Shown here: positions 1-61,120 of the stretch, piece after piece
Layout of the letters: every line of letters begins with the position of its first letter
How positions within the stretch are numbered: the stretch's first letter is position 1
NCBI GenBank assembly: GCA_963514005.1
Contig: OY740802.1
Location: forward strand, 12,090,001 to 12,154,000
DNA: 64,000 nt
Source of the DNA: Raja brachyura
Taxonomy: Eukaryota
Reading direction: 5' to 3'
Notes under the pieces: model-generated
Databases searched by the model: none
Told to the model about the DNA's origin: nothing
What the model saw: only the letters and a program-made list of their open reading frames with translations
Program-made: the position numbers and the translations under genes

Positions 1-968
1 TGTTTCAATTTAATCCATATATCTTTGGTAATCCAAAGGGCTCCAGCTTTGACTAGCCTTCCTTTCCTCTTTTGGGAATTTAAGAATATTTTTAAATCTG
101 TTATAGAAACAAAGATGCATGTACGGTGGAACTTCTTAAGCTTTTAGTGATTAAAATGCCAAATTTCAGAGACCGTTTTTAGTGAATCGGCAACCTTTTA
201 TACAGTACATACATGTCCACTGCATTCAGGATGCACAGTGGAAGCTTGAGGACTTTAGCAAAGGGACAAACATCTAATGCTTAACATTGCTTATTTTTAT
301 TGCTGTACAAAGAATATTAGTTCTGATATTTTCTTATTACTGTAAATATTATGGTTAATTTTAATAAGGTGCGTATGAGCTGAGAACTTTTAAATATTTT
401 CTTGTCTTAGATAACTGAAGATCCCTGGAATTGAGGTCTAAATGTAACTAAATGCATTTGTTGGGTCTGAAGTTGTTGATGCCGTCAACAAATAAACTGG
501 CTTTGATAAAATTATCATTATTTATGGGAGAAGATAAAGGAAATTAACATAGAGTTAAGCTAATATGATTTTTGGACAAGTTTACTTCCCCTTCATTAGG
601 TTAGGAAGCATATCAACTCAGTTTAAGTAACAGATCTTCCCCAACCAACAATGGGCCATTACGGGCTCCCCCCTTCCTAAAGTCCTCTTGTTGGCCCTGG
701 CTTGTTCTGGCCTTCTCTATATTCTGCAATTGTGGGACGCAACATAAACTGACACAAAAGCGAATGCCAGAAATACCCAGTCAACAGACAAGGTGGCATC
801 TATGAAGAGAGAGAATCTGAGTTAATTCTAATGGCAGATGAAGACACAAAGAGCTGCAGTAAGTCCGCGGATCAGGCAATATCTCTGGAGAACGTGGATA
901 CGTGACGCTTCGGGTCAGGACCCTTCTTTCGTTACTTAATGGACCCATAATGGAAAATACTTTACATC

Positions 969-1157
969 AGGGAAAGATGCAAAATGCTGGTGTAACTCAA
1001 TGGTTCAGGCAGCGTCCCTAGAGAACATGGATAGGTGACCTTTCTGGACCTAAAACATCACCTCTCCATAATCTCCCGGGATGCTGCCTTACCCATTGAG
1101 TTACCCCAGCATCTTGTGACTTTCCTTGGTAAACCAGCATCTGCAGTTCCTTGTTTC
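969..1157. mobile_element. Fold-back Penelope pLTR-derived mini-element with 13-bp TSD
   Basis: Inverted pair of the pLTR motif (GCTGG..AACTC..CAGGCAGC / GCTGCC..GAGTT..CCAGC) ending CCAGCATCTGCAGTTCC. Flanked by exact AATACTTTACATC at 956-968 and 1158-1170. Confidence 0.8.
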
Positions 1158-1199
1158 AATACTTTACATCTGAACTGGACAGTTAAGGTAGCTAAGGCA

Positions 1200-11962: not shown

Positions 11963-13249
11963 AAGAAGCATTTATAGTACATCCCTATTAATCTTTGATA
12001 AGGTGAAGGTGAGCAGGTGAACGCAGCACTAACAACAAACTCCCTGTGAGGGGCAAACAAGATTTTAATTAGGAAGTTGCATCCCAATTTCAACCGGCAA
12101 GTCTCCAAATGAGCATCGCATTCTGGGTGGCCTGGCCCAGCACACTATCAACGTACCAAATTCAGAAGTGCATTTAGGATGTTACTGTGACCAGAGGCTG
12201 TGGGTCATATTTCTTGAATTGTACAATTACTCATAAAAAACTATTGACATTCAGTTACAGGCTGCATATTAGCACAGTGCAATATTTTCCCAATTTCTAG
12301 GCAGCAGCATTTTCAAGATCGCAGCCAACTCTCATCTTAGTGTTGTTTGGTTTAGTTTAGTTTAGTTTAGTTTAGTGAAGTTTTGAGGGTTTATGGAGTC
12401 AAATTGTTTCACACAGTTTGTTTTTACAAATTATATTTATAGAACTGATTTTCTATTTGTGAATTTATGATGATTTTTAAAAAATCTTCAGGGATTCATC
12501 CCATTCCTTTCACCATTTTTAAAGATGTGTGAGCGTTGATGCATCGAGCGTTGATGTTAAAAAACAAAGTCCGGTGTTCAACCTTCATTTTTCATCATCA
12601 CCACTGTACACACCAACTCTGCACTGGTCTGGAGCACCGGCAGTGGGCACATTTCTCTGGATATATAGGCAATTTAAAACAAACCCTCAACTACTGACAG
12701 CAAAGACTTGTGTTTGTTAGCTGTCTGGGAAAGGTTTACATGGTTACAGTGTATTGGCACTAACAGTTTGAATGGAGCTTAAAGTCAAGTAAGTTTTACC
12801 ACTATCACATTGTTTCAATCATTGTTCGTCTCCAGAAAGAGTGAGACTAATTCAATACGCCAGAAACCCATATTGCATCCTGACCTTGGGTGTTGCCTCT
12901 GTGGAGTTTGCAACTTCTCGCTGGGTTTCCTCCAGGTACTCTGGTTTCCTCCCACATCCTACAGACATGGGGGTTATGTTGGTTAACTGGCCTTTGTAAA
13001 TTGCCTCCTGTGAGTAGGGACAAGATGTGACAAGTGGAATAACAGAACTAGTGGGAATAGTGCCTGTTTACATGGTGTGTGCCTTTATATCACTTCATAA
13101 TGCTTACAACCATTGAAAAAAAGATTGCAGAAAACTCTTTGCACTTGTTTTGATGTGTGTGAGCACAGGTTCAGATAATCATCACTGCAATGTAAAAACA
13201 AAGCATGCACATTTTCAAAAGTGAGAGAAGAACATCAATCCCGAAGAAT

Positions 13250-13565
13250 GACACAAAATGCTGAAGTAATTCACTGGGTCAAGCAGCATCTTTGGAGAAA
13301 AGGAATATGTAACGTTTTGAGTCGAGACCCTTCTTCAGACTGAGGGAAAGGGGAGTGGGAGACTAGAGGTATGAGAAGGTACAAAGAACAAATGAATGGA
13401 AGGAATGAAAAGAACAAATCAAAGCTAGCAATGATGATCAGAAAAGATGGAGCCCACAATGGTCCATTGCTAATGTTTATGTTGCTTAACATTAAAATGT
13501 AAAACTAGACTGATTTTTTGTGTCTATCTTCGGTGTAAACCAGCATCTGCAGTTCCTTCCTGCAC
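13250..13565. mobile_element. Penelope pLTR/3'UTR fragments
   Basis: Minus-strand pLTR with GACCCTTCTTCAGACTGA and 3'UTR, followed by a plus-strand pLTR end. Confidence 0.7.
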
Positions 13566-13679
13566 ATTAAAGTAATCTCACTGCCTGTGGAGGCAAAAAA
13601 ACAAATGAAACTATTTATTCTATGTGATAGTTGAAGAAATTATTTGTTTCAAATTGGTCAATTTTTACATTTAATTTTT

Positions 13680-17485: not shown

Positions 17486-18486
17486 ATCATTTTCATATGT
17501 AAATGAATGGCATGACTTCAGTTATGCTGTAGAATATTGAGTGAATGTTCTGAGTCACCCAGAGCTAAGTTAAACAAGCAGTTTCACATTGATCACCATG
17601 GAGTTTACAGTGAAGATGTGGATAACATCTTTGAGCAGGAACCTTTAGGGTTATATCCCACCAGCTTCATTCATTTCCGTAACTTTTCTCTGGGAAAAGG
17701 TTACGCCACATTCTTCCAAAGCAAATGTTAAGCGATTACAAAAGTTTACACTCAAAGAACAGCATGTTTTGGAGTAAACGTGTGGCTCAGGCAGCATCTC
17801 TGGAGGACATGGATAGGCGGCAATTTGAGTTGGAACCTTTCTTCAGTTTGATGAAGGTCCTGTCCCATTGAGTTAATCCAGAACTTTGTGTTCTATGCAA
17901 GATCCCAGGATCTGGAGTTCCTTATCTTTCTCTCTCTTGACTCTTAATTAATCTCTGTTTTGGCCTTGCATGCATGAGGTTTATAAAGGTCATGAGATAT
18001 ATCACAGATTTATTAAATAAAAATAGAATATGGTAAATTCTCCACAGGTTGCCCAGTGATATTAGGGAGAAACAGAAAATACTAGTTTAATAAAACGCCA
18101 TGGAAGAGTTTATGTTTACGAAATATAAAATATATTTAAAATAGGAAAGGAAAGAACAACATAGAAGACTTGTGCTCTGCTGGAAGGAGGAAGACTTTAA
18201 ATGGCAAAAGGAGATGTTAATGGAACACATAAATGAATAAATAGTGAGTCTACAGGAGGTGTAAATGGAACAGAAAAATCTTTGCCTGAAATTGTTCAAT
18301 TCATTGTTAGGTCATAGCCCTAAACACTAACATGCCCAATTGAAAGATGAGAGGCTGTTTGTCAAGTTTAGCTTGACCTTTGTAGATCTATGCCCCAGCA
18401 CAGGGTCAGTGACAAAAACGGCCCACAATTAAAGTGATAGGCCTCCTCCATGAAGACTCAAGAAATGACAGATCCTGGAATCATTA

Positions 18487-19540: not shown

Positions 19541-22444
19541 ATATCTTGTACAATATTTGGTTGTAAATGCAGGCATTTGGTTTCCAAGAAATGGAAATGA
19601 TAAAAAATATTTGCTTAAGGTTCATTCAATGAACAGAAACAATGATTTATTAGATATTCACTTTCACATATAGGACTTCAAGATAACAAATCCATCACCT
19701 TTACAAGAACTCCTGTTCTGGGTGAGAATCCTGTTCTGTAAGATGTATAAAATTTCACACCAAACATATCATACACATGTAGATACAAATACTGGCCTTA
19801 AGCAGAGTTGCTATTCGAGGAAGAAAGAGCTTCATGTTTCATAATACTTCTTTTTTAAAATAGTTTTGAAAGATAAGCAAGTGTGCATTTTGCTACAAGT
19901 AAAAGGAGTTTTCCATTTTGTGTGTAAAAAAACATGATTAGTTGATGGGGAAAAGGGACCCATTTTGTGACCACCTTGTGGGAACATCTGTAAAAGATTA
20001 GATTGTCACTGCTAATAAAAGAAAGAATTCAATCAACTTAGCTTTCTTAACTCCCAAAAGAGGGCTTGAACAGAAGAAGTGTTTAACTGCAAAAGACCAT
20101 GACCTTAGGTGAGTCTTTAACCATATTCTGCTGTCTTTGATTTAGGTCCCAGTATCCTTTTCCAGAAAGCTACATTCTTGTCAATTTCACCAATACGGAT
20201 GTCGTCAACTTGAGATCAGTATGTCTCTGGGCTGTTTTTTTTACATATATGAGGAATATCAGAAAACCTTCAAAGAGAAAGCAGTAGTGACCCAAATGTC
20301 ACTTCAGAAAATGGATATTGTCTACTAAGACAGTCCTCAAAAAATATAAGGGGACAGAGGTCACTTAAGAAGCCATAAGTGGTTAAAGCTGTGGTATCCC
20401 ATTTCTATAGCCCATTTGTTAATTTGATATATATGTATATATATATATAGAAAACAGAGCAACCAACGATCGCTTTTAGGAGGTCGCTGATAAAGAAACA
20501 CAGTGATCAGTAGATTGGATTACAAAAGTGAAATGTATTCCACCGAGATTGGAAATATTGTCGGAGACTTTGGTCTCTGTTACAATTTTTATCCATTCTT
20601 GGGGTGGTTGTCGCTGGCAAACCCTACATTTATTGCGCGTCTCTTGTTGTCCAGATCTGATATGATTTAACTACTTGGCAGGCTACATCAGAAGGAGTAT
20701 AAAAAACGCTGCTGTGGGACATATTCACACGTAGGCCACACAGTTTTTAGGCCCAATTTCCTTCGCTAGTTGGCGATCAGTGACAAACAGATTTGTGGTG
20801 ACTTTACTGTTGCCAGCATTTCAGTTCCCAGACATTTTTTTGCAAACACGAGTTTAAATTGTTCCATGTAGTCTTTGAAACGCCTAGATTTAGCAAAAAG
20901 AAATTGCGTCTTACAAAGAGGTTTTAAATAAGTTGAAGATAGGCATAAAAAACTGGAGTAACTCAGCGGGACAGGCAGCATCTTTGGAGAGAAGGAGTGG
21001 GTGACATTTTCGGTCGAGAGTAGATTTTGGTCAGGAGTGGTGAGATCTGATTTATATAATATGCCAGCTTTTTTTCTTGCAGCATTATGTGTATAATTTG
21101 ACAAGAGTCTGCGACTGAATTTGAAAAGAATGAATGGCACTGATACAAACTATCAGGAGAGGGATGACGCCTGAATTTTTGAAAATGTAGGCAGCTCTGC
21201 AAAGTGAGAATTGTTACATTGCACTTAGGGTGTATTAACACAGGAAGCAGATCCAGTTCCTTAGAATGGCCTCAGGGTACTTGTGATATACCGAGCTGCC
21301 CATTATTCAATAAGCATGTTGGAACTCACAAAGTATCATTTCAATTAATTTAAGTACTTTTTTTTAGATTAAATATAAGATGCATGTGCTTTGTAATAGT
21401 ATCTTACAGTACTGGGGGGGAGGCGGGGGGGGGGGGGGGGGGGAGGAAACTCAAATGAAATTACATTTTTAACTCCAGAAATTCCTTCACCTTATCAATG
21501 CATTGTGTTCCCTGCATATGCCCATTTCTTGCTCCAGGGCCATTTTTGAAACTAAATTATACCTAAATTGAAATGCCTTCAGCTGGGGAAGGGCGCAAAG
21601 TGCTGCAGTAACTCAGCGGGTTAGGCAGCATCTTTGGAGAACATGGATGGGTAACGTTTCAGGTCTGGACCCTTCTCCAGACTGAGCAGTTAAACCAGCA
21701 TCTGCAGTTCTTTTTTTCTACATTTTCAGTATCTTCAGCTGTTCAAGTAATCAGCTGAAGAATTGCCTCTCTAAACCTCATTATCTTGCAATTCTGAATC
21801 AGTGGGATCAGTCGGAAGAAGGGTCCCAACCTGAAAGGTCACCTAACTATCTCCTCCACTGATGCTCCCTCACCCGCTGAGTTCCTCCAGCACTTGGTGT
21901 TTTGCTCAAGATTCTAGCATCAGCAGTTCCTTCTTTCTCCTTCTTATGATTCTACCTGGCTCAGTTATTCGTTTTCTTGTCAAATGAAGACATTGAATAC
22001 AAACAGATTTGAGAATGTTGATTTTTTGCATTTTGATTGGTGATGGCATAAAGGTGATGGTTTACTGTAAATGTCTGCCCCACATAACTAAACATTCAAT
22101 TGAAACAAATACTTCATGATAAATATTTATTCTGCCTGATAAAATAACAACGAAAAAACAAATGTTGTCCTGTCTATGTACACCGTTGCCAATATACACC
22201 AACTAACTAAAATACTTTAGTATATGTTATAATGTGGGATGAAGGAGGGAATTTATGCTTGGAGACAGACGATGTAGGCAAGGCATCAAAAGAGTACTTT
22301 GCCTCGGTATTCACCAAGGAGAATGATGTGGAGGATAGTGAGATCAGTGTGGGTTAAACATTCACTGGGGCAGAAGGAGGTGATATTTGGTCTCATGAAA
22401 GGTATTAGGGGAACTAAATCCCAGGCACTGATTGATTAAATGGA

Positions 22445-23270
22445 ATGAAATTGAATAGAATACTTTATAGTCACATGTGACCAGGCACAGTGAAATTCTT
22501 TGCTTGCATACCCAAGGTCACCATATAGAGTAGTCACTGCAAATAGTCACCACATATGGAGTTGACAAAGTCAAGAGTCAAGAGTGGTTTATTGTCATAT
22601 GTCCCGGACGGGACAATGAAATTCTTACTTGCTGCAGCACAACAGAAGATGTGAATATGTAAACATTGTATATAATGGGGAAAAAAAATAAATGGTTCAA
22701 TAAATAAAAAATATGGTGCAAATAACAAATAATAATATAGTCTTGTGCAGTTCAGAGCTCATAGCTTATTCGTTGTGTTTAATAGCCTGATGGCTGTGGG
22801 GAAGAAGCTGCTCCTGAACCTGGACGTTACAAAGTTACAAAGTTACAAAGTACCCCTGCCAGCTCCTCCTTTGTTCCCCCCCCCCCTCCCCATCCTGGTG
22901 GTCTCCCACGCTCCATGTCCACTGTTCTTCCCCCTCCCTCACAGCAGTCCCTCCCGCGCCCGGTCCTCCATTGTTGTTCCCCCTCATGGTGGATCCCCCC
23001 GCGCCCTCATTGACCGCCGACCGCGGGTCGACCCACGAGGCCCCACCGCTACCGCCGAGGCTCCACCGCTGTCGCCGAGGCAGACTTCGCCACCCGGCTT
23101 CTCCACGGCCTCCCAGATTGAATGATTGATACTTTATTGTCACGTGTACTTGGTACAGTGAGATTCCTTGTTTGCATACAGTACAAGTATGCAAAGGACA
23201 AAGAGTAAAGGGCAGCAACAAAGTTACAAAAGTATTCAATATAGTCCTTTTTCCTTCTCTCCTCCCCTGT
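22445..23270 (-). mobile_element. Cluster of Rex1-tailed elements: GC-rich non-coding element, nested Rex1 3' end (about 22570-22830), and a second copy
   Basis: Three TTTAT(A/T)GTCA..hairpin..GAAATTC tails at about 22465, 22590 and 23133; shared ACAAAGTTACAAA motif. Confidence 0.6.
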
Positions 23271-24153
23271 AACTCAGCAGGTCAGGCAGCATCTCTGGAG
23301 AGAAGGAATGGGTGATGTTTCGGGCCAAGAACCTTCTTCAGACTGATATCAGGGGAGGGTGTGGGACAAAGATAGAATGTAGTCAGAGACAGTAAGGCTG
23401 CTGGGAGAACTGGGAAGGGGGAGGGGATGGTGAGGGAAAGCAAGGGCTATCTGAAGTCAGAGAAGTCAATGTTCATACCGCTGGGTTGTAAGTTACCCAA
23501 GCGAAATATGAGGCACTGTTCCTCCAATTAGCGGTGGGCCTCACTCTGACATTGGAGGAGGCCCAGGACAGAAAGGTCAGATTGGGAATGTGAGGGGGAG
23601 TTCAAGTGATGAGCCACCGGGAGGTAGGTTAAGATGGACTGAGCGGAGGTGTTCAGCGAAACGATCGCCGAGCCTGCGCTTGGTCTCGCTGATGTAGAGA
23701 AGTTGACACTTGGAACAGCGGATACAGTAGATAAGATGTGAGGAGGTGCAAGTGAACCTCTGCCTCACCTGGAAAGACTGTTTGGGTCCTTGGATGGAAT
23801 CGAGGGGGGGAGGTAAAAGGACAAGTGTTGCATCTCCTGCGGTTGCAGGGGAAAGTACTTGGGGAGGGGGTGGTTTGGCTGGGAAGGGACAAGTTGACCA
23901 GGGGGTTTTGGAGGGAACGATCTCTGTGGAAAGCAGAAAGGGGTGGAGATGGGAAGATGTGCCAAGTAGTGGGATCCCGCTGGAGGCGGCGAAAATATTG
24001 GAGGATTATATGCTGCATGTGACAGCTGGTAGGGTGGAAGGTGAGGACAAGGGGGCTATGTCCTTGTTATGAATGGGGAGAGGGGGAGCAAGAGCGGAGC
24101 TGCAGGATATCGAGGAGACTCTAGTGAGAGCCTCATCTATAATGGAAGAGGGG
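23271..24153 (-). mobile_element. Penelope-like element, 3' part (RT C-terminus/linker, GIY-YIG endonuclease, 3' pLTR)
   Basis: RQRFTCTSSHLIYCIRCSKCQLLYISETKRRLGDRFAEHLRSV (GIY-YIG); Cys-rich linker PCNRRRCNTCP; frameshifted; pLTR at about 23271-23350. Confidence 0.9.
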
Positions 24154-24255
24154 AAACATAGAAACATAGAAACATAGAAAATAGGTGCAGGAGTAGGCCA
24201 TTCGGCCCTTCGAGCCTGCACCGCCATTCAATGTGATCATGGCTGATCATCCAAC

Positions 24256-28100: not shown

Positions 28101-28320
28101 GAAGGCCTGTTTCCTAAAGAATGAGGATATCTCCAATGCCCTACTATGGAACACCTCATCCTGGGCACAGATGCAGCGTAGATGGAGGAATTGGGAGTAT
28201 GGTGGGAAGAAATGTAGACAAGATAGTTATAGGAGTCAGTAGGTTTGTAGTAGATATTGGTTAATAGTCTGTTTCCTGCGTTGGAAACAATAGGGAGATG
28301 TCGGAGATGGTCTGAGTAAT
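28100..28320 (-). mobile_element. Penelope-like element, upstream part (RT C-terminal region)
   Basis: Minus strand reads GNRLLTNIYYKPTDSYNYL..PYSQFLHLRCICAQDEVFHSRALEISSFFRKQAF, contiguous with PSSIIDEALTRV at 24153. Confidence 0.85.
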
Positions 28321-32526: not shown

Positions 32527-33019
32527 CTCTCCATGAATAGAGACAATCCCAAACAGAAGTCAAAGATCTCTAACCACAATCATGCACCATTACACTTGTA
32601 TTTGTATTTTTTTGTTGTATTTGTCTTGGCTGTATGTCTACTGTCTAATCCGTAAGGTTAGTGTACACAAGGATTTTCATTGTATATGACAAGAGACTAA
32701 ACTAATCTAACCTCAAAGCAAGGTAAATGTTCCAAATTTGTGCATCACGATGACACACTCTTAAAGCAGAACTTAAGGACTTGAACTCTGTTTAACATTA
32801 CATGAAACTTGCTCATCTTTGTTGGTTTCAGCAGGTTGTGTGAGCTGTACTAGGATATCCTTAAAGGGTTGTCCAATTCTGCATCCATTTGTTACTTTTG
32901 GTAAAGTGTATCATTGACAAGGGAGAGTAGAAGGTACTAGCAAACGGTCTTCTAAACATTATTTGCGACAGGATAATCTACAGTATACAGTTAATAAATA
33001 TTTAACAGGTGAAAGTACT

Positions 33020-33346
33020 TCGCTTGGGCAGCTTACATCCCAGTGGTATGATAATTGGTTTCTCTCACTTCAGGTAGCCGCGGCATTCCCTCTCTCTCTA
33101 TCCCTCCCCCACCCAAGTCGCACTTGCTTCTCATTTTTACTCTTCAAACAGCTATCAATGGCATGTTTCCTTTATCATCGTTACTTTTTTGCATATCTTT
33201 CATTCATTGTTCTTTATCTCTCCACATCATCATATATACCTCTCGTTTCCCTTATCCCTAACCAGTCTGAAGAAGGGTCTCGACCCGAAACGTCACCCAT
33301 TGCTTCTCTCAAGCGATGCTGCCCTGTCTAGCTTTTTGTGTCTACC
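33020..33346 (+). mobile_element. Penelope-like 3' end with pLTR
   Basis: End of GIY-YIG ORF (LGSLHPSGM), pyrimidine-rich 3'UTR and pLTR. Confidence 0.75.
33262..33300 (+). ncRNA. Minimal type I hammerhead ribozyme-like motif in a Penelope pLTR
   Basis: GT-CTGAAGA-A-GGGTCTCGACCC-GAAA-CGTC-AC: conserved core, stem II and palindromic ACGT stem III. Stem I has only 2 bp in cis. Confidence 0.5.
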
Positions 33347-33375
33347 CTGGGAACACTAGAATTCTTCTCTCCTAG

Positions 33376-38566: not shown

Positions 38567-38985
38567 AAAAGGGGACAAAAGAAGTGTTTTATACCACCAA
38601 AACATTTGAGGGTAATGTCATGCTAAGTTTTGTAATTGGTTGATCTTTCGTTGTGTCTGATTGTATTTGTATAATTGTAGAAGACAAATATTAATCATAT
38701 TGTGTATCTATCATGATGAGGAGTATATTGTACTCAAATCGGTGTGGCATCTACCAGCTGTTCGTATTTCATTTGTATTGAATATCACATCAATTTTCAC
38801 TTTTGTATCAAGAGTTGTAAATGATGCTCAGAGCTGTACAAGCGTATCGCTCTTAATAATTCTGTGTATCATCAAGATGATGATAGTGATGAGGAGACGT
38901 TTATTTATTAATGTACATGTTTGTTGACCAGCCTGCCCCCGTTGTGTATGGTCCATTTATAACACCAAGCATCTCTTTGAGTTGT

Positions 38986-39160
38986 AGATAGACACAAAAT
39001 GCTGGAGTAACTCAGTGGGACAGGCAGCATCTCTGGAGAGAAGGAATGGGTGACATCACTCATTCCGTTTCTCCAGAGATGCTGCCTGTCCCGCTGAATT
39101 ACTCCAGCATTTTGTGTCCATCTTTGGTTTAAACCAGCATCTGCAGTTCCTTCCTACACA
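38986..39160. mobile_element. Fold-back pLTR mini-element
   Basis: About 65-bp inverted arms meeting at GTGACATCAC; ends CCAGCATCTGCAGTTCCTTCCTACACA. Confidence 0.8.
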
Positions 39161-40747: not shown

Positions 40748-41309
40748 ATTTCCAAAAGAAATTTACCAAAATAATTTCAGAAATGAAGGGCTTTTGATAT
40801 GTGGATTGAATTGAGAGGTTTGTTGGTCCTCAAGAGTCAGAGGATTTTGCAAAGGGATCTAATGACACTATTTAAAATCACTTTGGTATTTGGATAGAGC
40901 TCTTAAAGGGAAGCCATCCTTAGAGGTCTCAAGAATGAAGGGCAAAACATGAAGTTAAAGGAACCAAAAATGATATCAGGAGATAAAAAAGCACACACCA
41001 AGTAGTTAGGATCTAGAACTCACAGTCTGGAATCATCGTGGGACCGGATCCAATTCTGGTCCTCAGATGTGAATTGGAATATTATTGGAAAAGAAGGAAT
41101 TTTCAGGGTTATTGGAAAAGGATGGGAGTGTGGAATTAGCTTTATTTCTCCAGCATTGACCCAGGAGGAGGAGATTAGCATTTTGCGACTATACTGTGCG
41201 ATTCTATATAGCACTGTTTAAGAGGGGAGAAAGGCAGAGGGTGAAGGTGCATGAAGAGGGATTTATGGAATTATGCTTCTGGAATTGGAGGAACAGCCAC
41301 GAATGAGTG

Positions 41310-41520
41310 ATGCAAAAAGCTGGAGTAACTCAGCGGGTCAGGCAGCATCTCTGGAGAAAAGGAATAGGTGATGTTTGGGTTGTGACCCTCCTTCAGATCC
41401 GACCCGAAATGCCACCTATTCCTTTTCTCCAGATATGTTGACTGACCCGCTGAGTTAGTCCAACTTTTTTTTTTGTCTATCTTCGGTTTAAACCAGCATC
41501 TGCAGTTCCTTCCTACACAT
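41310..41520. mobile_element. Fold-back pLTR mini-element
   Basis: Inverted pLTR arms joined at CTTCAGATCCGACCCGAAA. Confidence 0.8.
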
Positions 41521-42964
41521 TTTGTCAGCCGCCAAGGATTAGTTGAAGAAAGTCAAAGTGTGCCCTGGGCTGAAATGGAAGGGTGCATAACGTTGAAGTG
41601 ATGCTAACTTGGATAAAGGATGGGACAGAGATTTGGAGGAGTGTTGCTGTGGAATGATTTGAAAACATAGACAACAATTTTAAAATAGCTCAACCATACG
41701 TGTATCCAACATAACATAGGGAGATGTGTGAACAGACTCATTGTGAACTCCAACACAAATATTGGAAGACACCTTGTTTAAAGCAGGTGTAACATGAAAG
41801 ACTGGCCAATACCATTTTGCACTAGTTAAGCATAGAGGCGATAAAGGCACAGATGAGAGTTTCATAGAATTCCAGTTGAGGCATGGCCAGAGATGAGAAA
41901 TATCACAGGAATGAAAGCAGGATTTGTAGAGGCTATGGGATTGGAATAAAGACAGGAAATGCTGGAGATTCTCAGTTATTGAGGCAGCATCTGTGGAGAC
42001 AGAAACAGAGTCAACGCTTCAGTTTAATGATCTTTCATCAGAAATGGAAAGGCGAGGGATGAGAGAGTGCAGGGAAGAAGGGGAATGGTGGGGAGAATAC
42101 ATGGGATGGGTGACAAGACGTAGACAGGACAGATTGTCTGATTGACAATACAGCTCACCCCCTCCATGACACACTGGTCAACCTGAGGAGCACCTTCAGC
42201 CACAGACTGGTTGCACCGCACCTCCTCCCCCTTCTGTCATGGGGTAGATTGACTCCACTCCCCCCACACCCACCCCATCCCCAATCTTTGCACATCTCCA
42301 ATCCTGGACTTTCCACTCGTCACTTTAATTTCATGTTTCATTTATCCTGATGTGTTTGATGACTGTTGGCAGACAAATTTCCCGCCTGGGATAAATAAAG
42401 TTCTATCGTATCGTGTCGTATTGGGGTGCCACTTTGGAGCTGCCAGTCCCCCCGTGACAGTTCCGCACGCTCTCCGAAACCCCAAACATGCGTGGGCTGG
42501 CGGGGTTACTGTAAGGTTATTGGTGGCGGTAAATAGCCTCAGCTATGTATGTGGCAGGTAGACGTTGGAGGGGATTAATGAGAAGTTAGCAGTAGAGATG
42601 ATGAGACTTTTACATTCTGTGTGAGAGCAGGAACACATCATCAATGGACTGGCCAAAGAGGTGACGGAGGGGGCTCGAGTATCAAATGAGATTTGGGATG
42701 TTTCACATGCCCTCTCTTTGCAGGCAAGGCTGTGATTGACTTGAACTTCTTCCAGTCTGGTGTGATTCGTCACATTACGTGGCCTGCGCAGGAAGGAACT
42801 GCAGATACTGGTTTGAACCGAAGATAGACACAAAAGGCTGGAGCAACTCAACAGGACAGGCAGCATCTCTGGAGAGAAGGATAGGCTGAGCATTTTTGTG
42901 TCTATCTTGGGTAAAAGCTTTGCAGGACGGTCTCATTCATTCACTCCTCAGGGCAACACTGAGC

Positions 42965-43112
42965 TTTCAATTGCCTGTCACTTTAATTCTCCATCCCACT
43001 CCCACTCCGAGCTCCCTGTCTTTGGCCTCCGACAAAGCCCAATGTAAGCTGGAAGAACAATACCTCATCTTCCAACCAGGTACATTACAGTCTTCCAGAC
43101 TCAACAATGAAT
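42965..43112 (+). mobile_element. Penelope GIY-YIG C-terminal fragment
   Basis: AQCKLEEQYLIFQPGTLQSSRLN resembles the end of the element at 23480-23600. Confidence 0.6.
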
Positions 43113-43630: not shown

Positions 43631-45766
43631 TCGAGTCAAGAGAGTTTTATTGTCGTGTGTCCCAGATAGGACAATGAAATACTTGCTTTCTGCAGCACAA
43701 CAGAATATGTAAACATAATACAGAACAGTTCTATATACCATAGACAATGTATATACACAATAAATAAACAGGTAAAGTGCAATAGGCTGTTATTGTTCAG
43801 AGTTTGTTTGATGTCGTGTTTAATAGCCTGATGGCTGTGGGGAAGAAGCTGTTCCTGAACCTGGATGTTCCAGATTTCAAGCCCCTGTACCTTCTTCCCG
43901 ATGGCAACAGAGTGATGAGTGTGTGGCCAGGATGATGTGGGTCTTTGATGATCTTGGCAGCCTTTTTGAGGCAGAGACTGCGGTAGATCCCTTCGATGGT
44001 GGGGAGGTCAGAGCCGATGATGGACGGGGCAGTGGTCACAACTTTCTGCATTCTTTCCGGCTCCGGGACGTTCAAGTTGCCGAACCAGGCCACAATGCAA
44101 CCGGTCAGCATGCTCTCTACTGTGCACCTGTAGAAATTCAAGAGAGTTCCTCCTTGACATACCGACTCTCCGTAATCTTCTCAGGAAGTAGAGGCGCTGA
44201 TGTGCCTTCTTTATAATTGCATCAGTGTGCTGGGACCAGAAAAGATCTTCAGAAATATGCACGCCCAGGGATTTGAAGTTCTTGACTCTTTCCACCATCG
44301 TCCCGTTGATATAAACGGGATTGTGGGTCCCTATCATACCCCTTCCAAAATCCACAATAATTTCCTTGGTTTTGCTGGTGTTGAGAGCCAGGTTATTGTG
44401 CTGGCGCCATTGGGTCAATCGTTGATCTCACTTCTATACTCTGACTCATCATCATCAATGATTCGTCCCACAACAGTGGTGTCATCGGCGAATTTGATGA
44501 TGGAGTTCGCACTATGTCCGGCTATGCAGTCATGAGTATAGAGTGAGTACAGCAGAGGGCTGAGCACGCAGCCTTGAGGTGCTCCTGTACTGATTGTTAT
44601 CGAGGATGACACATTTCCGCCAATACGGACAGACTACGTTCTGTGGATGAGGAAGTCGAGGATCCAATTGCAGCGGGATGCGCAGAGACCCAGTTCTGAG
44701 AGCTTAGTAACCAGCTTGGATTGTATTAAATGCCGAGCTGTAGTCTATGAGGGTTACACAAAAAACTGGAGAAACTCAGCGGGTGCAGCAGCATCTAAGG
44801 AGCGAAGGAGATAGGCGACGTTTCGGGTCGAGACCCTTCTTTAGTCTCGACCCGAAACGTCGCCTATCTCCTTCGCTCCTTAGATGCTGCTGCACCCGCT
44901 GAGTTTCTCCAGCTTTTTGTGTAACCCTCGATTCTCCAGCATCTGCAGTTCCTTCTTTAACACTGTAGTCTATGAATAACACCCTGACATATGATTTTTT
45001 GTTGTCCAAGTGGTCCAGAGCGGAGTGGAGAGCCAGTGAGATCGCATCCACCGTTGACCTGTTGTGGCGGTAAGCGAACTGCAGTGGGTCAAGGTTCTTG
45101 TCGAGGTAGGAGTTGATATGTGCCATAATCAACCTCTCAAAGCACTTCATCACCACAGACGTTAGTGCCACTGGTCTATAGTCATTGAGGCACGTCACCT
45201 TGCTCTTATTGATGCCCTTTTAATGCAGGTGGGAACCTCATACCTCAGAAGTGAGAGGTTGAAAATGTCCGTCAAAGCTCCAGCCAGTTGGTCCACACAG
45301 GTTTTTCGAACACGTCCGGGTATACCATCAGGTCCAGGTGCTTTCTGAGGGTTCCTCTGTGACTGTGACTGAAATACCATCATGGCAAATGGGAGCTCGG
45401 GAAGGCACATCAGTGTTCTCCCAATCAAAACATGCGTAAAACGCATTGAGCTCATCAGGGAGTGATGCTTCGTTGACACTTGAGCTGCCTCCTGATTTCG
45501 CCGTGTTGGAGGTGATGGCATTCAAGTTGCTGAACATCCGTCTCATCCTCCAGCTTGGAGCAGAAGTCCCTTTTGGCCTTTTTGATGGCCTTACCAAGGT
45601 CGTATCTGGACTTCTTGTAGACCTCTGTATCTCCAGACCTGAATGCCCGGGATCTGGTCTTCAGAAGAATGCGGATCTCATGGTTCATCCAAGGCTTCTG
45701 GTTAGGAAACACTCGGAAGGTTTTTGTTGGGATGCAGTCCTCCACACATTTCTTTATGAAGTCTGT
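43631..45766 (-). mobile_element. 5'-truncated, frameshifted Rex1/Babar LINE
   Basis: [91 protein letters not shown]; 3' hairpin plus AATAAA. Confidence 0.93.
44751..44962. mobile_element. Fold-back pLTR mini-element (212 bp) inside Rex1, 13-bp TSD
   Basis: 84-bp arms (44751-44834 / 44844-44927) with one mismatch; exact TSD CTGTAGTCTATGA at 44738-44750 and 44963-44975. Confidence 0.92.
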
Positions 45767-46859
45767 GGAGGGCAAGAGGGCAAATGAGAGTGAAAAAAGC
45801 ACTCAGTGTACTGGAGTATCTCAGCGGGTCAGGCTGCACCCTGAAGACTGTACATAGGTGACGTTTCGGGTCGGGACCCTTCTACAGTCTGAAGAAGAGA
45901 TTTTGTTATCCATATTTTCCAGGGATGCTGGCTAATCCACTGTGCTGTTTTTTTGTAAACCAGCGTCTGCAGTTCCTTGTTTCTACAAATTGCATTGTGA
46001 TCTTTATTGTAAAGAGGTTGGTGTTTAGAAATAGGAAAGTTTTGTTAAAATTATATAGATGGTGAGTGAGGCCACATCAGTGCTTTGTGAACAGTTCTGG
46101 ACATCTTACCCAGGAAACAATACAGTGATATTGGAGGTGTTCCAAAGAAGATTCACCAGTCTAGTTTGTGGAACGAGAGAGATGTCCTAACAAGGGAGAC
46201 TAAACAGATTAGGTCAGTGTCCCTTAGAGCTTAGAAGAATGAGGGATGATCTCACTTAACCATATGAAATCCAAAGGAGGAATGGCATGAATGATGTTGA
46301 GTCATTTTCATTAGTTGGAAAACCGCAAATGAAGAGACGTAACTTCAAGATAAGGGACTAGCTGTTTAAAATGTAGAAATGTCTCCTCACAGAGAGTGGT
46401 GAGTCTCGGAATACTCAATGATTCAATGATATTTTATTGTCTGGTGTACCTAGGTACAGTGAAATTCTATGTTTTTTCATACAATCCGGTAAAACAGACT
46501 TCACCTCGTCAAGGTGACGTGCCTCAATGACTATCGATCAGTGGCACTAACGTCTGTGGTGATGAAGTGCTTTGAGAGGTTGATTATGGCACAAATCAAC
46601 TCCTACCTCGACAAAAAGCTGCCATGTTCCTGTGCCGACAAAGTTACAAAAGTTTCAAAAATTGATACTCTACCCCAGGGAGTTATGGACGTCAACTCAT
46701 TCAAAGTATTTAAGGTGGGGGCAGATACATATTTGAAAAATCAGGGGATTGAGGGTTATAGGGAACTGGTCCAGAGTAGTTGTTGCGGGTTTGAGGTAGA
46801 CTGGCCATGAACATATTAATTGGAAGGGCAGGCTTGAAGGCCTGTTTGGCCTTCTGTTT

Positions 46860-49505: not shown

Positions 49506-50358
49506 AAGACCAGACTTGTTCAATCTAAATGTAAGGACTGCAGATGCTGGTTTACAAAAAAAAACACAAAGTACTGGAGTAACTCAGCAGGTCAGTCAAC
49601 ATCTCTGAAGAACATGGACAGGTGACATTTGGGGACTGGACTCTTCTGCCTAATGAAACGTTTTGCACAGTTGAAGGAAAATGAATAAATAATAACTGCA
49701 GATGGCCACAAAGTGCTGGAGTAACTCAGCAGGTCAGGCAGCATCACTGGAGAAACACGATTGCTGACATTCCGGGTTGGGACCGAGCCATAGACCGCTG
49801 GTCCTGAGATGTTGCATGACCCGCTGAGTTACTCCAGCACTTTGTGTTTATCTTTGGTATAATCCAGCATCTTGCAGTTCCTTTCCACACTAGTGACTGC
49901 ACCTGAGCACCTAGAAGAGGATCTAACTCATTGTCTTAACGTGATGTGACATGCCAATCTACCTTGGGATCTATTCAGGGGCAGTTCTTTGTACAGAATT
50001 CACAACCATTATCCCAATTTAATTGCAGTCCGAATAAAATACCGAACGTACAAAGAGGGATGTAGCCGTTATTCTCCACAACATTGCAGATAACATCCTG
50101 TTAAACTGTGTGTAATTATTGAGATTCTTTAGTATGAATGGATATAATAGAAACCTCCAAGGCACAGTATTTCTGAAATCATTAATTAATTTTGACTGCC
50201 TTTATGATAAAGCAAATCTTGTTTAATTCCTATGTGGTTTTTAGTGTGGTTACAAGCCTTGTCTGACGAGATCCATTATCTATGTCGAGATGTCAGTTCC
50301 AACTGAAGCAAGCCAGCGTAGTATAATGTTCACACTGCTGTATATGTTGCCTGGAAAT

Positions 50359-50700
50359 GTGGTGTTGTGGTGTTGTGGTGTTGTGGTGTTGTGGTGTTGT
50401 GGTGCTGTGGTGTTGTGGTGTTGTGGTGCTGTGGTGCTGTGGTGTTGTGGTGTTGTGGTGTTGTGGTGTTGTGGTGCTGTGGTGCTGTGGTGTTGTGGTG
50501 CTGTGGTGTTGTGGTGTTGTGGTGTTGTGGTGTTGTGGTGCTGTGGTGTTGTGGTGCTGTGGTGTTGTGGTGCGGTGGTGTTGTGGTGCGGTGGTGTTGT
50601 GGTGCAGTGGTGTTGTGGTGTTGTGGTGCGGTGGTGTTGTGGTGCGGTGGTGCGGTGGTGTTGTGGTGCGGTGGTGCAGGGGTGCTGTGGTTCGGTGGTC
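50359..50700. repeat. 8-bp tandem repeat (GTGGTGTT/GTGGTGCT/GTGGTGCG)n
   Basis: About 42 directly visible units. Confidence 0.97.
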
Positions 50701-50840
50701 TTGTGCCATACAAACCAGGGATCAGCAACCCTCCTTTATGGTGAATTTACTGATCACAAACAGTTGCAAACTCCGCATATAATTTTAATGCCTTCAAAAT
50801 CAATGTGAACGAGAATGGAAGCAGAAAGGACTCCTTTGAC

Positions 50841-51140
50841 TGCACGGTGGCACAGCGGTAGAGTTGCTGCCTCACAACGCCAGAGTCCCGGGTTCGATCC
50901 TGACTTTGGGTGCTGTCTGTGTGGTGTTTGTACGTTCTCCAACGTGACCTGCGTGGGTTTTCATCGAGATCTTCAGTTTCAAGCCCCACTCCAAAGATGT
51001 ACAGGTTTGTAGATTAATTGGCTTGGTATAATTGTAAATTGTCCTGAGTGTGTGTAGGATAATGTACGTTTGTGGGTATTGCTGGTCGGCACGGACCCGA
51101 TGGGCATCTGCGCTGTATGTCTAAACTAAATTAAACTAAA
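50841..51140 (+). mobile_element. tRNA-derived SINE
   Basis: A/B boxes, tail. Confidence 0.88.
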
Positions 51141-51411
51141 ATAGTGGCAAACCAAACCAAGAGTCTCAAGAAAGGTCCCAATCCAAAACGTCAGCAATCC
51201 ATGTTCGTCAGAGATGCTGAGTAACTCCAGTACTTTGTTTCTTTCTTGTAAATTTGTATCTGACATTCCTTGACCTTAAAAATATTCAAATTGGCTATGT
51301 TACAAATTCTTCATCCACTGATCCAAACCCCTTGTAGGGAAACTGTCAAATTTACATTGATGCATAATGCAGTCATGCAAGTAGGAGCTGGTCTTACAAC
51401 ATAATCCAATG

Positions 51412-55654: not shown

Positions 55655-56974
55655 GAATAATGACCACCAGTGTTTCACACATTTCTAGGCGCAATTCACT
55701 GCGGTGCATTTGATGTTTATCTAGCATTAAATGCGAATCGAACAGCCGCTTCCTGTGCATTGCGACCATTTCTGTATTTACTGACAGACTTGCCTGTCAA
55801 AATTGCAACCTGTAGTACTGTATGTGCTCATAATTCTCAAATAAAAGAATTAACCCCTGCAGCAGATTAGACAAGTGTGAGTTAAGAAATCCCACATTAC
55901 ATTGTCTCAGTTTTTATTGCTCAGCGTTGTATACACAGCATTCCATCAGATTCCCACTTTGAAGGCTTTCAACTCTAGGATATTTGATGTGGTCTGTTCC
56001 CTGCTTTTGTAGATGGAGCCCTCATCCATTCCTTCTCTGTTTCCCACAGTTCTGCTCTTGCTCTCCATTCCCCCAGACAGAACAAGTATAGAGATCCCCA
56101 GCCCCTCATCTATGCAGCAAAACCTTAATTTTGGACATTTCCCCACTTTCAACATAATCCTACCATTGATCACATCTTCCCATCGGCACCCATTTCCATC
56201 TTCTGTAGAAAGTCCATTCTCTCTGAAAGTCCTCAGTTCATAGGTTCATAAGTTCTAGGAGCATAATTAGGCCATTCACCCCATCAAGGCTATTCCGCCA
56301 TTCAATCATGGCTGATGTATCTTTCCCTCTCAACCCTATTCTCCTGCCTTCTCCCCATAACCCCTAATGAGATGAGGAAGGATGTGATGGTGTTGGAGAG
56401 GGTCCAGAGAAGGTTTATGTGAAAGATTCCAGCAAGGATGAGCGTTTGAAAGCAGTGCGCCTGTACTCGCTGGAGTTTAGAAGGTTGAGGGGAAACCTCA
56501 TTGAAACTCACCAAATAGTGAAAGGCCTGGATAGAGTAAATGTGGAGAGGATGTTTCCATGAGTGGGAGAGTCTAGGACCAGACATCCCATAAAGGAGAG
56601 AACTTCTGCGAATTAGTGCTCCCTCAGTAGGCTCCATGAGAAGTCTAATGTACAAGCACTTCCGTGAAAAATACCACAAAAATCAGGCTGTAACTTGAAG
56701 AATCACATGTTCATGCAATTGCTGTATATAACTGGTAACTATTAATATTTATTTGCAGATTTTAGGCCAATATAAATAATAGCAGAATCTTTAATTTGTT
56801 CAAACACATTATAAATACATAAACATTACAACTTCCGAATGTTTTAAGTGCATGATGTACTGTGTAGGTGGTGCACATTGGAAATATTAGTCCGGGTTCC
56901 CCAGACATAGGACGTGCATGCATGCATGCATGCAGAAACTACCATGCACAATGTCAGACCGCATGCAATGCTTG

Positions 56975-58596: not shown

Positions 58597-59431
58597 TGCT
58601 GTGAGTGACACTGGTCCCAGGGTCAAGCTAGCCTCTGATACTGTCTGTATGGAGTCTGCATGCTCCTCCTGTAACTATACAAATTTCACCAATGTCCTTT
58701 TGTTTTCTTCCACGTTCCAAAGATGTGTGGGCTGGTAAGGTAACTGTCCATTGTAGTATCGATAAGTGGTAGAATCTGGGACAAGTCCATAGGGAGTTGA
58801 TCCCCCGCTGATCCCATCTTATTTTGGACATTAAAATTGAAATGGTGACATTTTCTCTTTCTGCAGATGCTTCCTGACCAGCTGATCTTTCTCCTAGGGG
58901 AAATAAAAGTGGGATTCGAAACCGAAAATTGCTCAATAGCTCAGCAGATCAGGCAGCATCTGCGGAAAGAGAAAGAGTCACCATTTCATTTTTTTGATGT
59001 CCAAAATTAAGTGGGATCAGTGTGGGGATTAATTAAATTGAGTACTTGATGGTTTATCCATCTGAAGAAGGGTCTTGACCCGAAATGTCACCCATTCCTT
59101 CTCTCCAGAGGTATTGCCTGGCCCAGTGAATTACTCCAGCACTTTGTGTCTATCTTCGATTTAAACCAGCATATGCAGTACTTTCCGACTTGATTGTTGG
59201 TGTGGGCTTAGCGTGCCAGGCGTATTATTATATGACAGTATAGATTATTTTCTGGAAATAGCCTTATCTTTATGTAATACACAAGCCAATTCCTGTTTAA
59301 AGCATAAAACAGTAGGGTATTAGAAGTAGTAGCCGGAGTAGGTGATTTGGCCCTCTTGCTCACGGCACCTTTCCACACAAAATGTGGCTGATTTTTATCT
59401 GCATTTATTACATCTTCTGGATACCCTACAT

Positions 59432-60391: not shown

Positions 60392-60554
60392 NNNNNNNNN
60401 NNNNNNNNNNNNNNNNNNNNNNNNNNNNNNNNNNNNNNNNNNNNNNNNNNNNNNNNNNNNNNNNNNNNNNNNNNNNNNNNNNNNNNNNNNNNNNNNNNNN
60501 NNNNNNNNNNNNNNNNNNNNNNNNNNNNNNNNNNNNNNNNNNNNNNNNNNNNNN
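60392..60554. other. Assembly gap (163 N)
   Basis: Run of N. Confidence 1.
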
Positions 60555-61120
60555 CGGGACAGAATAACTCAACCGGACAGGCAGCATCTCTGAATAGAAG
60601 GAATAGGTGATGTATTGGATTGTCATCCTTCTTGAGGTCTGAAGAAGGGTCTCGACCTGAAATATCACCCATTCCATCTATCCAGAGATGCTGCCTGTCC
60701 AGTTGAGTTATTCCAGCATTTTATGTCTATCTTCAGTTTAAACCAGCATTTGCAGTTCCTTCCTACAATACATATGTAGATTCTTGACTAGTACAGGTGC
60801 AAGGGCTTATGGGGAGAAGGCAGGAAAATTGAGTTAGAAGGGAGAGATAGATCAGCCATGATTGAATGGCAGAGTAAATGATGGGCTGAATGGCCTAATT
60901 CTGCTCCTATCACTTATGACCTTATGGCTGAGCCTAACTGTTGGGTAGAGTAATCCAAAGATTCACTGTCCTTTAGGGAGAGGAACTCTTTCCCACCTCA
61001 GCCCTAAGGCTTATTTTGGGAAAAGGACACAAAGTGCTGTTGTAACCCAGCAGGTCAGGCAGCATCTCTGAAGATCATGGATAGGTAACATATTGGGTCA
61101 GGTTCCCTTTTTAGACTGCT

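What the first reader, a model, noticed from the sequence alone, without database searches (positions are those of the whole stretch)
44738..44975. 212-bp palindromic Penelope-derived element that inserted as a unit (13-bp TSD, 84-bp arms)
Seen: it interrupts the Rex1 RT at LFIDYS with an exact TSD CTGTAGTCTATGA, and the arms differ at one base. In the fold-back copies (about 1045, 39055, 41397, 44840, 45885, 49785, 60625) the turn-around falls in or beside the hammerhead-like core, and the right arm carries the extra CCAGCATCTGCAGTTCC end. Established: Penelope insertions can carry an inverted truncated pLTR. Inference: reverse transcription stalls or switches strand at the ribozyme hairpin, repeatedly producing MITE-like long hairpins by a retro mechanism. 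These would form dsRNA in any host pre-mRNA.
Basis: partly seen in the sequence, partly recalled or inferred. Interest (0 to 1): 0.7.

Follow-up and report, generated by a model that had tools for sequence, protein, structure and literature searches.

The report
Miniature fold-back Penelope retrotransposon insertion
A 212-base hairpin-shaped scrap of a Penelope-type retrotransposon sits inside an older retrotransposon in what is likely a skate genome; it is the known Penelope insertion pattern in miniature, likely made from two short reverse-transcribed copies joined head to head, so it is mostly ordinary.

Summary
In detail: an exact 13-bp TSD, a 212-bp insert, 84-bp arms with one mismatch, a 35-nt tail on one arm, and a clean split of the host RT at FIDY|S.

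The repeat is the pseudo-LTR of a Neptune-type Penelope-like element (PLE). One copy lies directly behind a GIY-YIG/RT remnant. Head-to-head inverted pLTRs, a one-sided tail and a roughly 10-bp TSD are published PLE hallmarks; this is the ORF-less minimal form.

Junctions do cluster at the minimal hammerhead (17 of 22 fold-back arm ends), but solo copies share that boundary (18 of 26; Fisher p=0.75). Of 35 core ends, 23 lie 5' of stem II and 1 at the predicted cut site. A stall at the hairpin, or ribozyme cleavage, therefore fits poorly.

Best model (inferred): both nicked strands prime short cDNAs at the two PLE RT start sites. These run to the template's 5' end and are joined through self-complementary micro-sequences. 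It is not a MITE. No host gene was found, so the dsRNA claim is untested. Unexplained: 17 of 19 tails lie on one strand.

The parts
44738..44750 (+). Left target-site duplication (13 bp, part of the host RT coding sequence)
44751..44844 (-). Tail-less inverted pLTR arm, repeat positions +1..about +95. Carries a minimal hammerhead whose core reads CTAA instead of CTGA (base 44842), then stem II, GAAA and helix III; predicted cut after 44817
   Evidence: P0033 indicates the same subfamily has the intact core elsewhere
44835..44847 (.). Head-to-head junction: 9 unpaired nt plus the shared G at 44844. Equals the symmetric junction type seen at 17850, 45885 and 60630, minus 12 nt between two GTCT direct repeats (inferred)
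44844..44927 (+). Tail-bearing pLTR arm, positions +11..about +95; lacks the CTGAAGA half of the ribozyme core
44928..44962 (+). 35-nt PLE 'tail' present on one arm only; inferred to be the stretch between two RT start sites
   Evidence: PMC11167929
44963..44975 (+). Right target-site duplication (13 bp, exact)
43760..45800 (-). Decayed non-LTR (Rex1-like, label recalled) RT element with stops and frameshifts; host of the insertion; bounds approximate
23269..24155 (-). Neptune-type PLE remnant: CxxxCxxC linker, GIY-YIG endonuclease, stop, about 105-nt pyrimidine-rich UTR, then the same hammerhead repeat. The RT C-terminal part continues at 28050-28288 beyond a CR1-like insertion
33016..33362 (+). 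Second copy with an endonuclease C-terminal remnant, UTR and hammerhead repeat; its UTR matches P0033, which also carries the focal arm subfamily
956..1170 (.). Fold-back unit with its own exact 13-bp TSD (956-968, 1158-1170); arm ends +21 and +12; tail on +
13240..13566 (.). Head-to-head unit whose tail-less arm runs through the ribozyme into the UTR; tail arm starts at +82 (counter-example to a ribozyme junction)
17748..17923 (.). Fold-back unit, junction at the TCAG-T-CTGA micro-palindrome; right arm internally deleted
21579..21720 (.). Head-to-head unit: arm to -6 joined to a tail-only piece (about +97); possible 9-bp TSD
38982..39158 (.). Fold-back unit centred on the helix III ACGT palindrome (+24..+27, CpG-decayed)
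41305..41517 (.). Fold-back unit, arm ends -1 and about +13; same junction class as the focal unit but another subfamily
42789..42925 (.). Head-to-head unit with the tail on the minus strand; tail arm from +29, short inverted arm from +78
45794..45985 (.). Fold-back unit at the micro-palindrome; right arm decayed or deleted
49694..49890 (.). Head-to-head unit, arm ends +10 and +44, with a 17-nt unassigned spacer
60555..60770 (.). Fold-back unit at the micro-palindrome; its left end runs into an assembly gap (N 60392-60554)

Best explanation
The element is a young, ORF-less insertion of two head-to-head pseudo-LTR arms of a Neptune-type Penelope-like retrotransposon, with a tail on one arm and a 13-bp target duplication, likely made in one event by two short cDNAs primed from the two strands of a staggered cut.

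Steps:
(1) Shown: the repeat is the pLTR behind a GIY-YIG/RT ORF.
(2) Inferred from the TSD: the endonuclease nicks both strands 13 nt apart.
(3) Inferred, by analogy with the Anolis PLE in vitro: each 3'-OH primes RT internally on a PLE RNA. One starts at about +95 (tail-less arm) and one at about +130 (tail arm), probably on two RNAs held by a protein dimer.
(4) Inferred: each cDNA passes through the weak ribozyme hairpin and ends near -6..+8, most likely because the template ends there (an Initiator-like TCAGTCT, consensus recalled). That makes the products strong-stop-like run-offs of about 100-135 nt.
(5) Inferred: two cDNAs of the same polarity can only join through self-complementary sequence, which the ribozyme region supplies (TCAG-T-CTGA, stem II, ACGT). 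In the focal unit a 12-nt loss between GTCT repeats, at or after insertion, left the 9-nt loop.

When only one cDNA is captured the result is a solo arm with the same ends. Neither focal arm holds an intact ribozyme core and there is no ORF, so the unit is most likely a dead-on-arrival by-product, made anew many times.
For: Identity. tblastn of whale-shark P0004 (RT + GIY-YIG) maps to 23450-24155 and 28062-28288 at E down to 1e-41, directly 5' of a repeat copy. The best hit of the EN fragment is Leucoraja erinacea at 79%. P0033 joins the focal arm subfamily (96% over 25 aa) to the UTR of the EN-linked copy at 33261 (95% over 19 aa), without a fold-back at that point.

Two 3' ends. 19 of 47 copies end at +120..+130, 16 end at +92..+102, none end at +103..+119, and the other 12 end earlier. 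Tail-less solos with their own TSD (31398, 40262, 57332) end where tail-less arms end, so +95 is an independent insertion end and not only where a fold-back copy stops.

Published mechanism. PMC11167929: two internal RT starts delimit the tail, both strands are cut and extended, a dimer is predicted, and ribozyme cleavage is not needed.

5' ends. 35 of 48 lie at -6..+31 (p=9e-19 or 6e-7 under two uniform nulls), 23 of those 35 at -6..+8 (p=8e-4), and 1 at +28..+30. In 5 of 11 units the tail-less arm reaches further 5' than the tail arm, which simple snap-back of a tail-primed cDNA cannot give.

De novo origin. The focal arms share 14 non-consensus bases against at most 6 with any other copy, and are sisters with 0.996 support. 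Their nearest relatives (36009, 40262; 80-84%) are solos. The symmetric junction recurs in 3 different subfamilies.

Youth. 6-7 CpG per arm, ranks 3-4 of 38 copies, and an exact TSD.
Against: No transcript data: the RNA 5' end at TCAGT is a guess. In Drosophila Penelope the start site lies 46 bp before a 75-bp intron whose end abuts helix I. By analogy the pyrimidine tract + CAG here could be an intron end and not a start site.

6 of 48 arms run on upstream, so longer templates exist. Palindrome centres can be deleted after insertion (recalled), which could create the asymmetry used against snap-back; the focal junction itself fits such a deletion.

Only 2 of 5 testable arm pairs rank their partner first; the other 3 are unresolved (which kept 36 of 47 hits). 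Only 2 of 9 fold-backs surveyed have a clear TSD, a third a 9-bp one. One 64-kb window cannot exclude a genome-wide family with the focal junction. Short arms are harder to detect, which inflates the clustering. The model does not explain the strand bias of the tails.
Confidence: 0.55

Rival explanations
1. Self-priming (snap-back). One cDNA folds back at a micro-palindrome in the ribozyme region and copies itself, as proposed for PLE inverted junctions by Arkhipova et al. 2013; later central deletions make the junctions asymmetric.
For: 4 of 11 junctions are symmetric about a native micro-palindrome (17850, 45885, 60630 at TCAG-T-CTGA; 39055 at ACGT), and 2 more have compatible geometry. The focal arms are 99% alike. 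The focal and 41397 junctions equal the symmetric type minus 12 nt. PMC3846280 argues for this reading.
Against: In 5 of 11 units the tail-less arm is the longer one at its 5' end. The second arm must stop exactly at about +95, which is also the end of TSD-flanked tail-less solos.
Confidence: 0.22
2. One reading: RT stalls or switches strand at the folded ribozyme hairpin.
For: 17 of 22 fold-back arm ends lie in the ribozyme region, 4 in stem II and 4 at +21..+31. A protein-stabilised fold could be a stronger block than the naked RNA; PMC11167929 calls the ribozyme protein-assisted.
Against: Most ends are 5' of stem II, so RT had already passed it. Stem II is 5 bp with a 2-nt loop. Solos have the same boundary (Fisher p=0.75). 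Stem II shows no covariation beyond shuffles in these decayed copies.
Confidence: 0.11
3. A non-autonomous palindromic master element is transcribed and retrotransposed as a unit (a retro-MITE family).
For: Junction classes recur: 3 symmetric units, and the focal and 41397 units alike. The unit keeps the 3' RT-start region and tail. Unit 1045 has a perfect 13-bp TSD but arms only about 80% alike.
Against: Units with like junctions belong to different subfamilies. The focal arms group with each other and with solos, not with other fold-backs. The only protein-library hit to the junction peptide covers the arm and continues as a normal monomer + UTR; that is weak evidence, since such DNA is rarely in protein sets.
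Confidence: 0.07
4. Ribozyme self-cleavage creates the RNA 5' end at which cDNAs stop.
For: The minimal type I hammerhead features are present in the family. One arm starts at +29 (42789) and unit 39055 turns at +24..+27.
Against: Only 1 of 48 ends lies at +28..+30, and 30 lie at -6..+20, upstream of the cut. In the Anolis PLE, cleavage is not needed and no reads end at the cut site.
Confidence: 0.03
5. A DNA-transposon MITE, or an assembly/sequencing fold-back artefact.
For: Near-perfect long palindrome.
Against: TSD-like repeats of 9-14 bp, variable in length and sequence. The ends are asymmetric (tail on one side). The repeat is linked to an RT/GIY-YIG ORF. The host frame reads cleanly across the empty site. 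The 10 other units are diverged.
Confidence: 0.02

Closest known systems
EN+ Penelope-like elements with inverted pLTR and tail (Adineta vaga Pen2a/Pen2/Pen3a, PMC3846280; D. virilis Penelope, PMC2377424; scheme in PMC8557442)
   Same: Head-to-head inverted, 5'-truncated pLTR; a 30-40 bp tail on one of the inverted copies; TSD of 8-10 bp there and 13 bp here; palindromes or short overlap at the inverted junction.
   Different: Here there is no ORF and no second direct pLTR: the unit is only the two arms. The units are very dense (11 in 64 kb), and arm 5' ends pile up at the 5' edge of the ribozyme.
PAc (Poseidon, Anolis carolinensis), PMC11167929
   Same: Two internal RT starts bracket the tail, roughly 110 nt or more downstream of stem II; both strands are cut and extended; hammerhead in the pLTR. 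In this family an 8-bp stem pairs arm (+49..+56) with tail (+107..+114), with weak covariation.
   Different: Neptune-type linker here. No ORF start could be placed in the arm or tail (one search found nothing). Inverted products were not discussed in the parts read.
Minimal type I hammerheads of metazoan PLEs (PMC4209133)
   Same: CUGANGA, a single base before stem II, G-C closing pair, GAAA, palindromic C-G at 15.2/16.2, short helix I; dispersed singles and close pairs on opposite strands (about 100-700 bp apart in Schistosoma).
   Different: The pairs here abut or overlap at the core, and in the focal unit both cores are broken.
LINE-1 twin-priming 5' inversions (recalled; no paper read)
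   Same: Both target strands prime cDNA; the junction has microhomology; a TSD flanks the unit.
   Different: In L1 the two cDNAs copy different parts of one RNA; here they copy the same part, giving a palindrome.
Non-LTR retrozymes (10.64898/2026.07.22.740005) and MITEs
   Same: Short, non-coding, hammerhead-bearing PLE derivatives (retrozymes); hairpin shape (MITEs).
   Different: Not a head-to-tail tandem with intact ribozymes; no symmetric TIRs or fixed short TSD.

Membership tests
EN+ Penelope-like element insertion | Repeat is the pLTR next to an ORF with PLE RT and C-terminal GIY-YIG | tested here: met
   Met for the family, not for the ORF-less focal unit. The remnant at 23450-24155/28062-28288 matches RT+GIY-YIG proteins; the window fragments themselves gave no Pfam hit (3 of 3). 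The focal subfamily is linked through P0033.
EN+ Penelope-like element insertion | Inverted 5'-truncated pLTR, head to head | tested here: met
EN+ Penelope-like element insertion | 30-40 bp tail on one end only | tested here: met
   35 nt, 44928-44962; bimodal 3' ends
EN+ Penelope-like element insertion | Variable TSD of about 8-14 bp | tested here: met
   13 bp at the focal unit and at 1045; 14, 13, 11 and 9 bp candidates at others; most of the 28 loci surveyed show none
EN+ Penelope-like element insertion | Minimal type I hammerhead in the pLTR | tested here: met
   Pattern found in 7 copies. Rfam gave no hammerhead hit. Broken in both focal arms. Cleavage not testable.
EN+ Penelope-like element insertion | pLTR/tail overlaps the ORF start | tested here: inconclusive
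   The peptide through the tail at 5822-5950 found no relative (2 candidates, weak search)
Neptune clade | [quoted passage not shown] | tested here: met
   CNRRRCNTC in the window; CNRRKCYTC in P0004
Neptune clade | RT phylogeny groups with named Neptune elements | not tested
   No named reference RTs were in hand; the clade call rests on the linker motif
MITE (non-autonomous DNA transposon) | Symmetric TIRs at both termini and a fixed short TSD | tested here: not met
   One end carries a 35-nt tail; TSDs are long and variable
Non-LTR retrozyme | Head-to-tail tandem units, each with a complete hammerhead | tested here: not met
   Inverted pair; neither core intact
Amplified non-autonomous palindromic family | Many copies sharing one junction and subfamily | tested here: inconclusive
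   0 further copies of the focal junction in the window. A genome-wide test was not possible: no eukaryotic DNA collection was on hand.

The most novel reading that the evidence does not exclude
In cartilaginous fishes the dominant Penelope product is an aborted strong-stop cDNA. Because RT starts only about 100-135 nt from the RNA 5' end, a dimeric RNP inserts one or two run-off copies, and the ribozyme's self-complementary bits glue pairs into perfect hairpins. The many short fold-backs would then be a genomic record of the missing template-jump step of PLE transposition, and the 17:2 strand bias of tails would mark strand-specific selection or targeting.
Probability: 0.3. Interest if true: 0.55.

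Novelty: new member of a known kind. Interest (0 to 1): 0.3.

Why it matters
The structure itself is a published PLE pattern, so a specialist would not be surprised. The value is as material. How PLEs form inverted pLTRs is stated to be unresolved (PMC8557442, PMC3846280). A genome with about one such unit per 6 kb allows a purely computational test between twin priming and snap-back, and of where the template ends. Such hairpins could also be mis-annotated as MITEs or microRNA precursors: Rfam gave sub-threshold miRNA matches at two of them. Any effect on host RNA is untested.

Tried and rejected
- Rfam (E up to 1, whole window): no hammerhead family; 6 sub-threshold miRNA-precursor matches on two hairpins and 1 lncRNA match, rejected.
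- RNAalifold on 20 copies: no consensus structure.
- Stem II: 88.5% paired but no covariation above shuffles.
- Arm-tail stem: 92% paired, 3 compensatory pairs, 11-14 of 500 shuffles reached the values. Suggestive only; the structure was picked from the consensus fold.
- Host gene search: 0 of 211 ORFs matched Pfam. Strand skew in non-repeat DNA was small and mixed (T-A -0.013, G-C +0.05), so no transcription direction can be given.
- A shared upstream exon among truncated copies: none seen in pairwise BLAST of 700 nt upstream of 12 copies.
- ORF start in the tail: no hit.
- Junction-spanning peptide against 1.84 billion proteins: 1 hit, arm only.
- A 21579/21807 inverted pair listed by the repeat finder was rejected as a unit: 68% identity, different subfamilies.
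- The bacterial promoter/terminator scan was irrelevant.
- A link to human UCON/Eulor hairpins: nothing found in the passages of PMC5753468.
- Searches that found no description of ribozyme-edge clustering or a strong-stop model. Subscription papers such as the Evgen'ev and Arkhipova 2005 and Arkhipova 2006 papers are not in the library.

Full report
Setting. The window is repeat-rich vertebrate DNA, with CR1-like LINEs, a SINE family and no host exon detected. The best protein match of its Penelope remnant is Leucoraja erinacea at 79%, followed by other sharks and rays, so a skate is likely; this is an inference. Repeat coordinates below count the C of the hammerhead CTGA as +1.

The observation. 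It is accurate. The 13-bp TSD is exact and occurs twice in the window. The insert is 212 bp, with 84-bp arms differing at 44765, 9 unpaired bases and a 35-nt tail on the right. Random flank pairs reach such a repeat in 0.33% of 300 trials. The host RT reads [14 protein letters not shown] across the empty site and has RVT_1 matches on both sides; 'Rex1' is my recalled label. The host has stops and frameshifts, while the insert is CpG-rich (ranks 3-4 of 38), so the insert is young. Two bases at the TSD end also match the template at the tail-less end (86-bp arms).

What the repeat is. nhmmer finds 47 pieces in 64 kb and 0 in 5 control sequences. The copy at 23269-23348 lies about 105 nt behind the stop codon of a decayed ORF. 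That ORF aligns with whale-shark P0004 over the thumb, the CxxxCxxC linker and the GIY-YIG domain (E 1e-41), and continues beyond a CR1-like insertion at 28062-28288. P0004 carries RVT_1 and GIY-YIG Pfam matches; the three window fragments alone gave none. The linker motif points to the Neptune clade (PMC8557442, passages); no tree was made. A second copy (33261) has an endonuclease remnant and UTR. The unnamed protein P0033 is an antisense read of the focal subfamily arm followed by that UTR (96% and 95%). It indicates that this subfamily also exists as an ordinary monomer with an intact core. The family has the minimal type I hammerhead of PMC4209133 (parts 1-2 of 4 read): CUGANGA, an extra A, a 5-bp stem II, GAAA, and C-G then UC. 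The predicted cut is after +28. In the focal unit the left core reads CTAA and the right arm lacks +1..+10, so neither is intact.

Ends. The 3' ends are bimodal: 19 of 47 at +120..+130, 16 at +92..+102, none at +103..+119, and 12 shorter. This matches the two RT starts and tail of the Anolis PLE (PMC11167929; parts 1-2 of 4 read; its Fig. S2 is an image I could not see). For 5' ends I curated 48 arms by hand: the 47 hits plus one short arm found. Six run upstream into the pyrimidine-rich UTR, 23 end at -6..+8, 7 in stem II, 5 at +21..+31 and 7 further 3'. The clustering is far from uniform (p=9e-19, or 6e-7 if upstream positions are ignored), although short arms are under-detected. It is the same for fold-back arms (17 of 22) and solos (18 of 26), Fisher p=0.75. 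So the ribozyme region is a general 5' boundary of this family's insertions, and the peak is at its 5' edge, beyond the hairpin and 20-34 nt upstream of the cut site.

Junctions. There are 11 head-to-head units. Three turn at the native TCAG-T-CTGA micro-palindrome and one at the helix III ACGT. Two (focal, 41397) join -1/+1 to +11/+13, one joins +21 to +12, and four have at least one end outside the core. The focal junction is what loss of 12 nt between two GTCT repeats would make of the symmetric type, so it may have been edited during or after insertion. The focal arms are sisters (0.996) and share 14 non-consensus bases against at most 6 with others; their closest relatives are solos. Unit 1045 also pairs up. 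Three older pairs are unresolved, and the tree held only 36 of 47 hits. Like junctions occur in unlike subfamilies, which favours repeated de novo formation. A master copy elsewhere in the genome cannot be excluded.

Mechanism. Both arms are oriented as cDNAs extended from the 3' ends of a 13-nt staggered cut, one from each RT start. This geometry is shown; the priming is inferred. Tail-less solos with their own TSD (31398, 40262, 57332) show that +95 is a stand-alone insertion end. In 5 of 11 units the tail-less arm is the longer one at its 5' end, which a tail-primed cDNA folding back on itself cannot produce. I therefore favour twin priming on two RNAs (0.55) over the published snap-back proposal (PMC3846280, passages; 0.22). 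The caveat is that central deletions blur this test. For the 5' boundary I favour template run-off at an Initiator-like TCAGTCT (consensus recalled) over a stall at stem II (0.11) or cleavage (0.03). An intron end at the pyrimidine tract + CAG is the main alternative, by analogy with Drosophila Penelope (PMC2377424, passages; PMC4209133), but many copies keep the CAG and no shared upstream exon was seen.

Comparison and novelty. PMC3846280 describes an inverted pLTR, a 31-bp tail on one copy, 8-10 bp TSDs and junction palindromes. PMC8557442 and PMC8969392 (passages) list these as standard PLE features. PMC4209133 notes close ribozyme pairs on opposite strands. The focal unit is thus a new, minimal member of a known kind. 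It is not a MITE and not a retrozyme (10.64898/2026.07.22.740005; part 1 of 5 and passages). Ten searches found no account of ribozyme-edge clustering or a strong-stop model, but key subscription papers and Repbase/Dfam entries are outside the library. PMC5753468 (passages) was not informative. Other papers were seen only as search listings.

Left open. The hairpin would form a -187 kcal/mol duplex if transcribed, but no host transcript is known here. Tails lie on the + strand in 17 of 19 copies (p=0.0007; 15 of 17 by motif search), while all repeat pieces (24/23) and a SINE family (12/11) are balanced. This was noticed post hoc in a single window, and I cannot explain it. Verdict: real and well formed, largely known; interest 0.3.

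Noticed in passing
window 1134-60759 (tail-bearing copies): 17 of 19 tail-bearing copies (10 of 11 fold-backs) have the tail on the + strand, p=0.0007, while all repeat pieces are 24+/23- and a SINE family is 12/11. Unexplained; strand-specific selection in an unseen host gene, or insertion bias, is possible.
   Followed up: partly
window 23269-28288 (-): 5'-truncated Neptune-type PLE (RT C-terminal part, linker, GIY-YIG, UTR, pLTR without tail) split by a young CR1-like LINE with an open 1025-aa ORF2 (24256-27333) and a GDSL-esterase-type ORF1 (27387-28226).
   Followed up: partly
repeat positions +49..+56 and +107..+114 (e.g. window 21858-21925, 5800-5866): An 8-bp stem pairs the arm with the tail and encloses the first inferred RT start: 92% paired and 3 compensatory pairs in 14 copies. 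A 10-bp palindrome sits at the arm/tail border in the consensus. May be the RT-recognition structure.
   Followed up: partly
window 58797-59032: Tail-to-tail (not head-to-head) inverted pair of an older, divergent relative of the repeat, about 72% alike, lacking a recognisable ribozyme core.
   Followed up: no
window 5709-6166 (+): Partial tandem: UTR-ribozyme-arm-tail, about 110 nt more, then UTR-ribozyme-arm without tail. The stretch after the tail may be the element's 5' body, but a protein search found no relative.
   Followed up: partly
window 13345-13380 (-), 33235-33266 (+), 23342-23400 (-): A pyrimidine tract ending in CAG directly before the ribozyme core looks like a 3' splice site, as in Drosophila Penelope. 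A second acceptor-like tract lies inside every arm (+35..+48).
   Followed up: partly
window 51140-51162 and 61119-61155: Two solo copies abut the pentanucleotide-repeat end of the SINE family at their 5' ends.
   Followed up: no
window 56003-56230 and 42964-43035 (+): Further short PLE ORF remnants without an adjacent pLTR.
   Followed up: no
window 60392-60554: A 163-N assembly gap begins inside the left arm of a fold-back unit, as expected if such repeats break assemblies.
   Followed up: no
window 50280-50780: Long GTG-rich short-period tandem array giving spurious ORFs.
   Followed up: no
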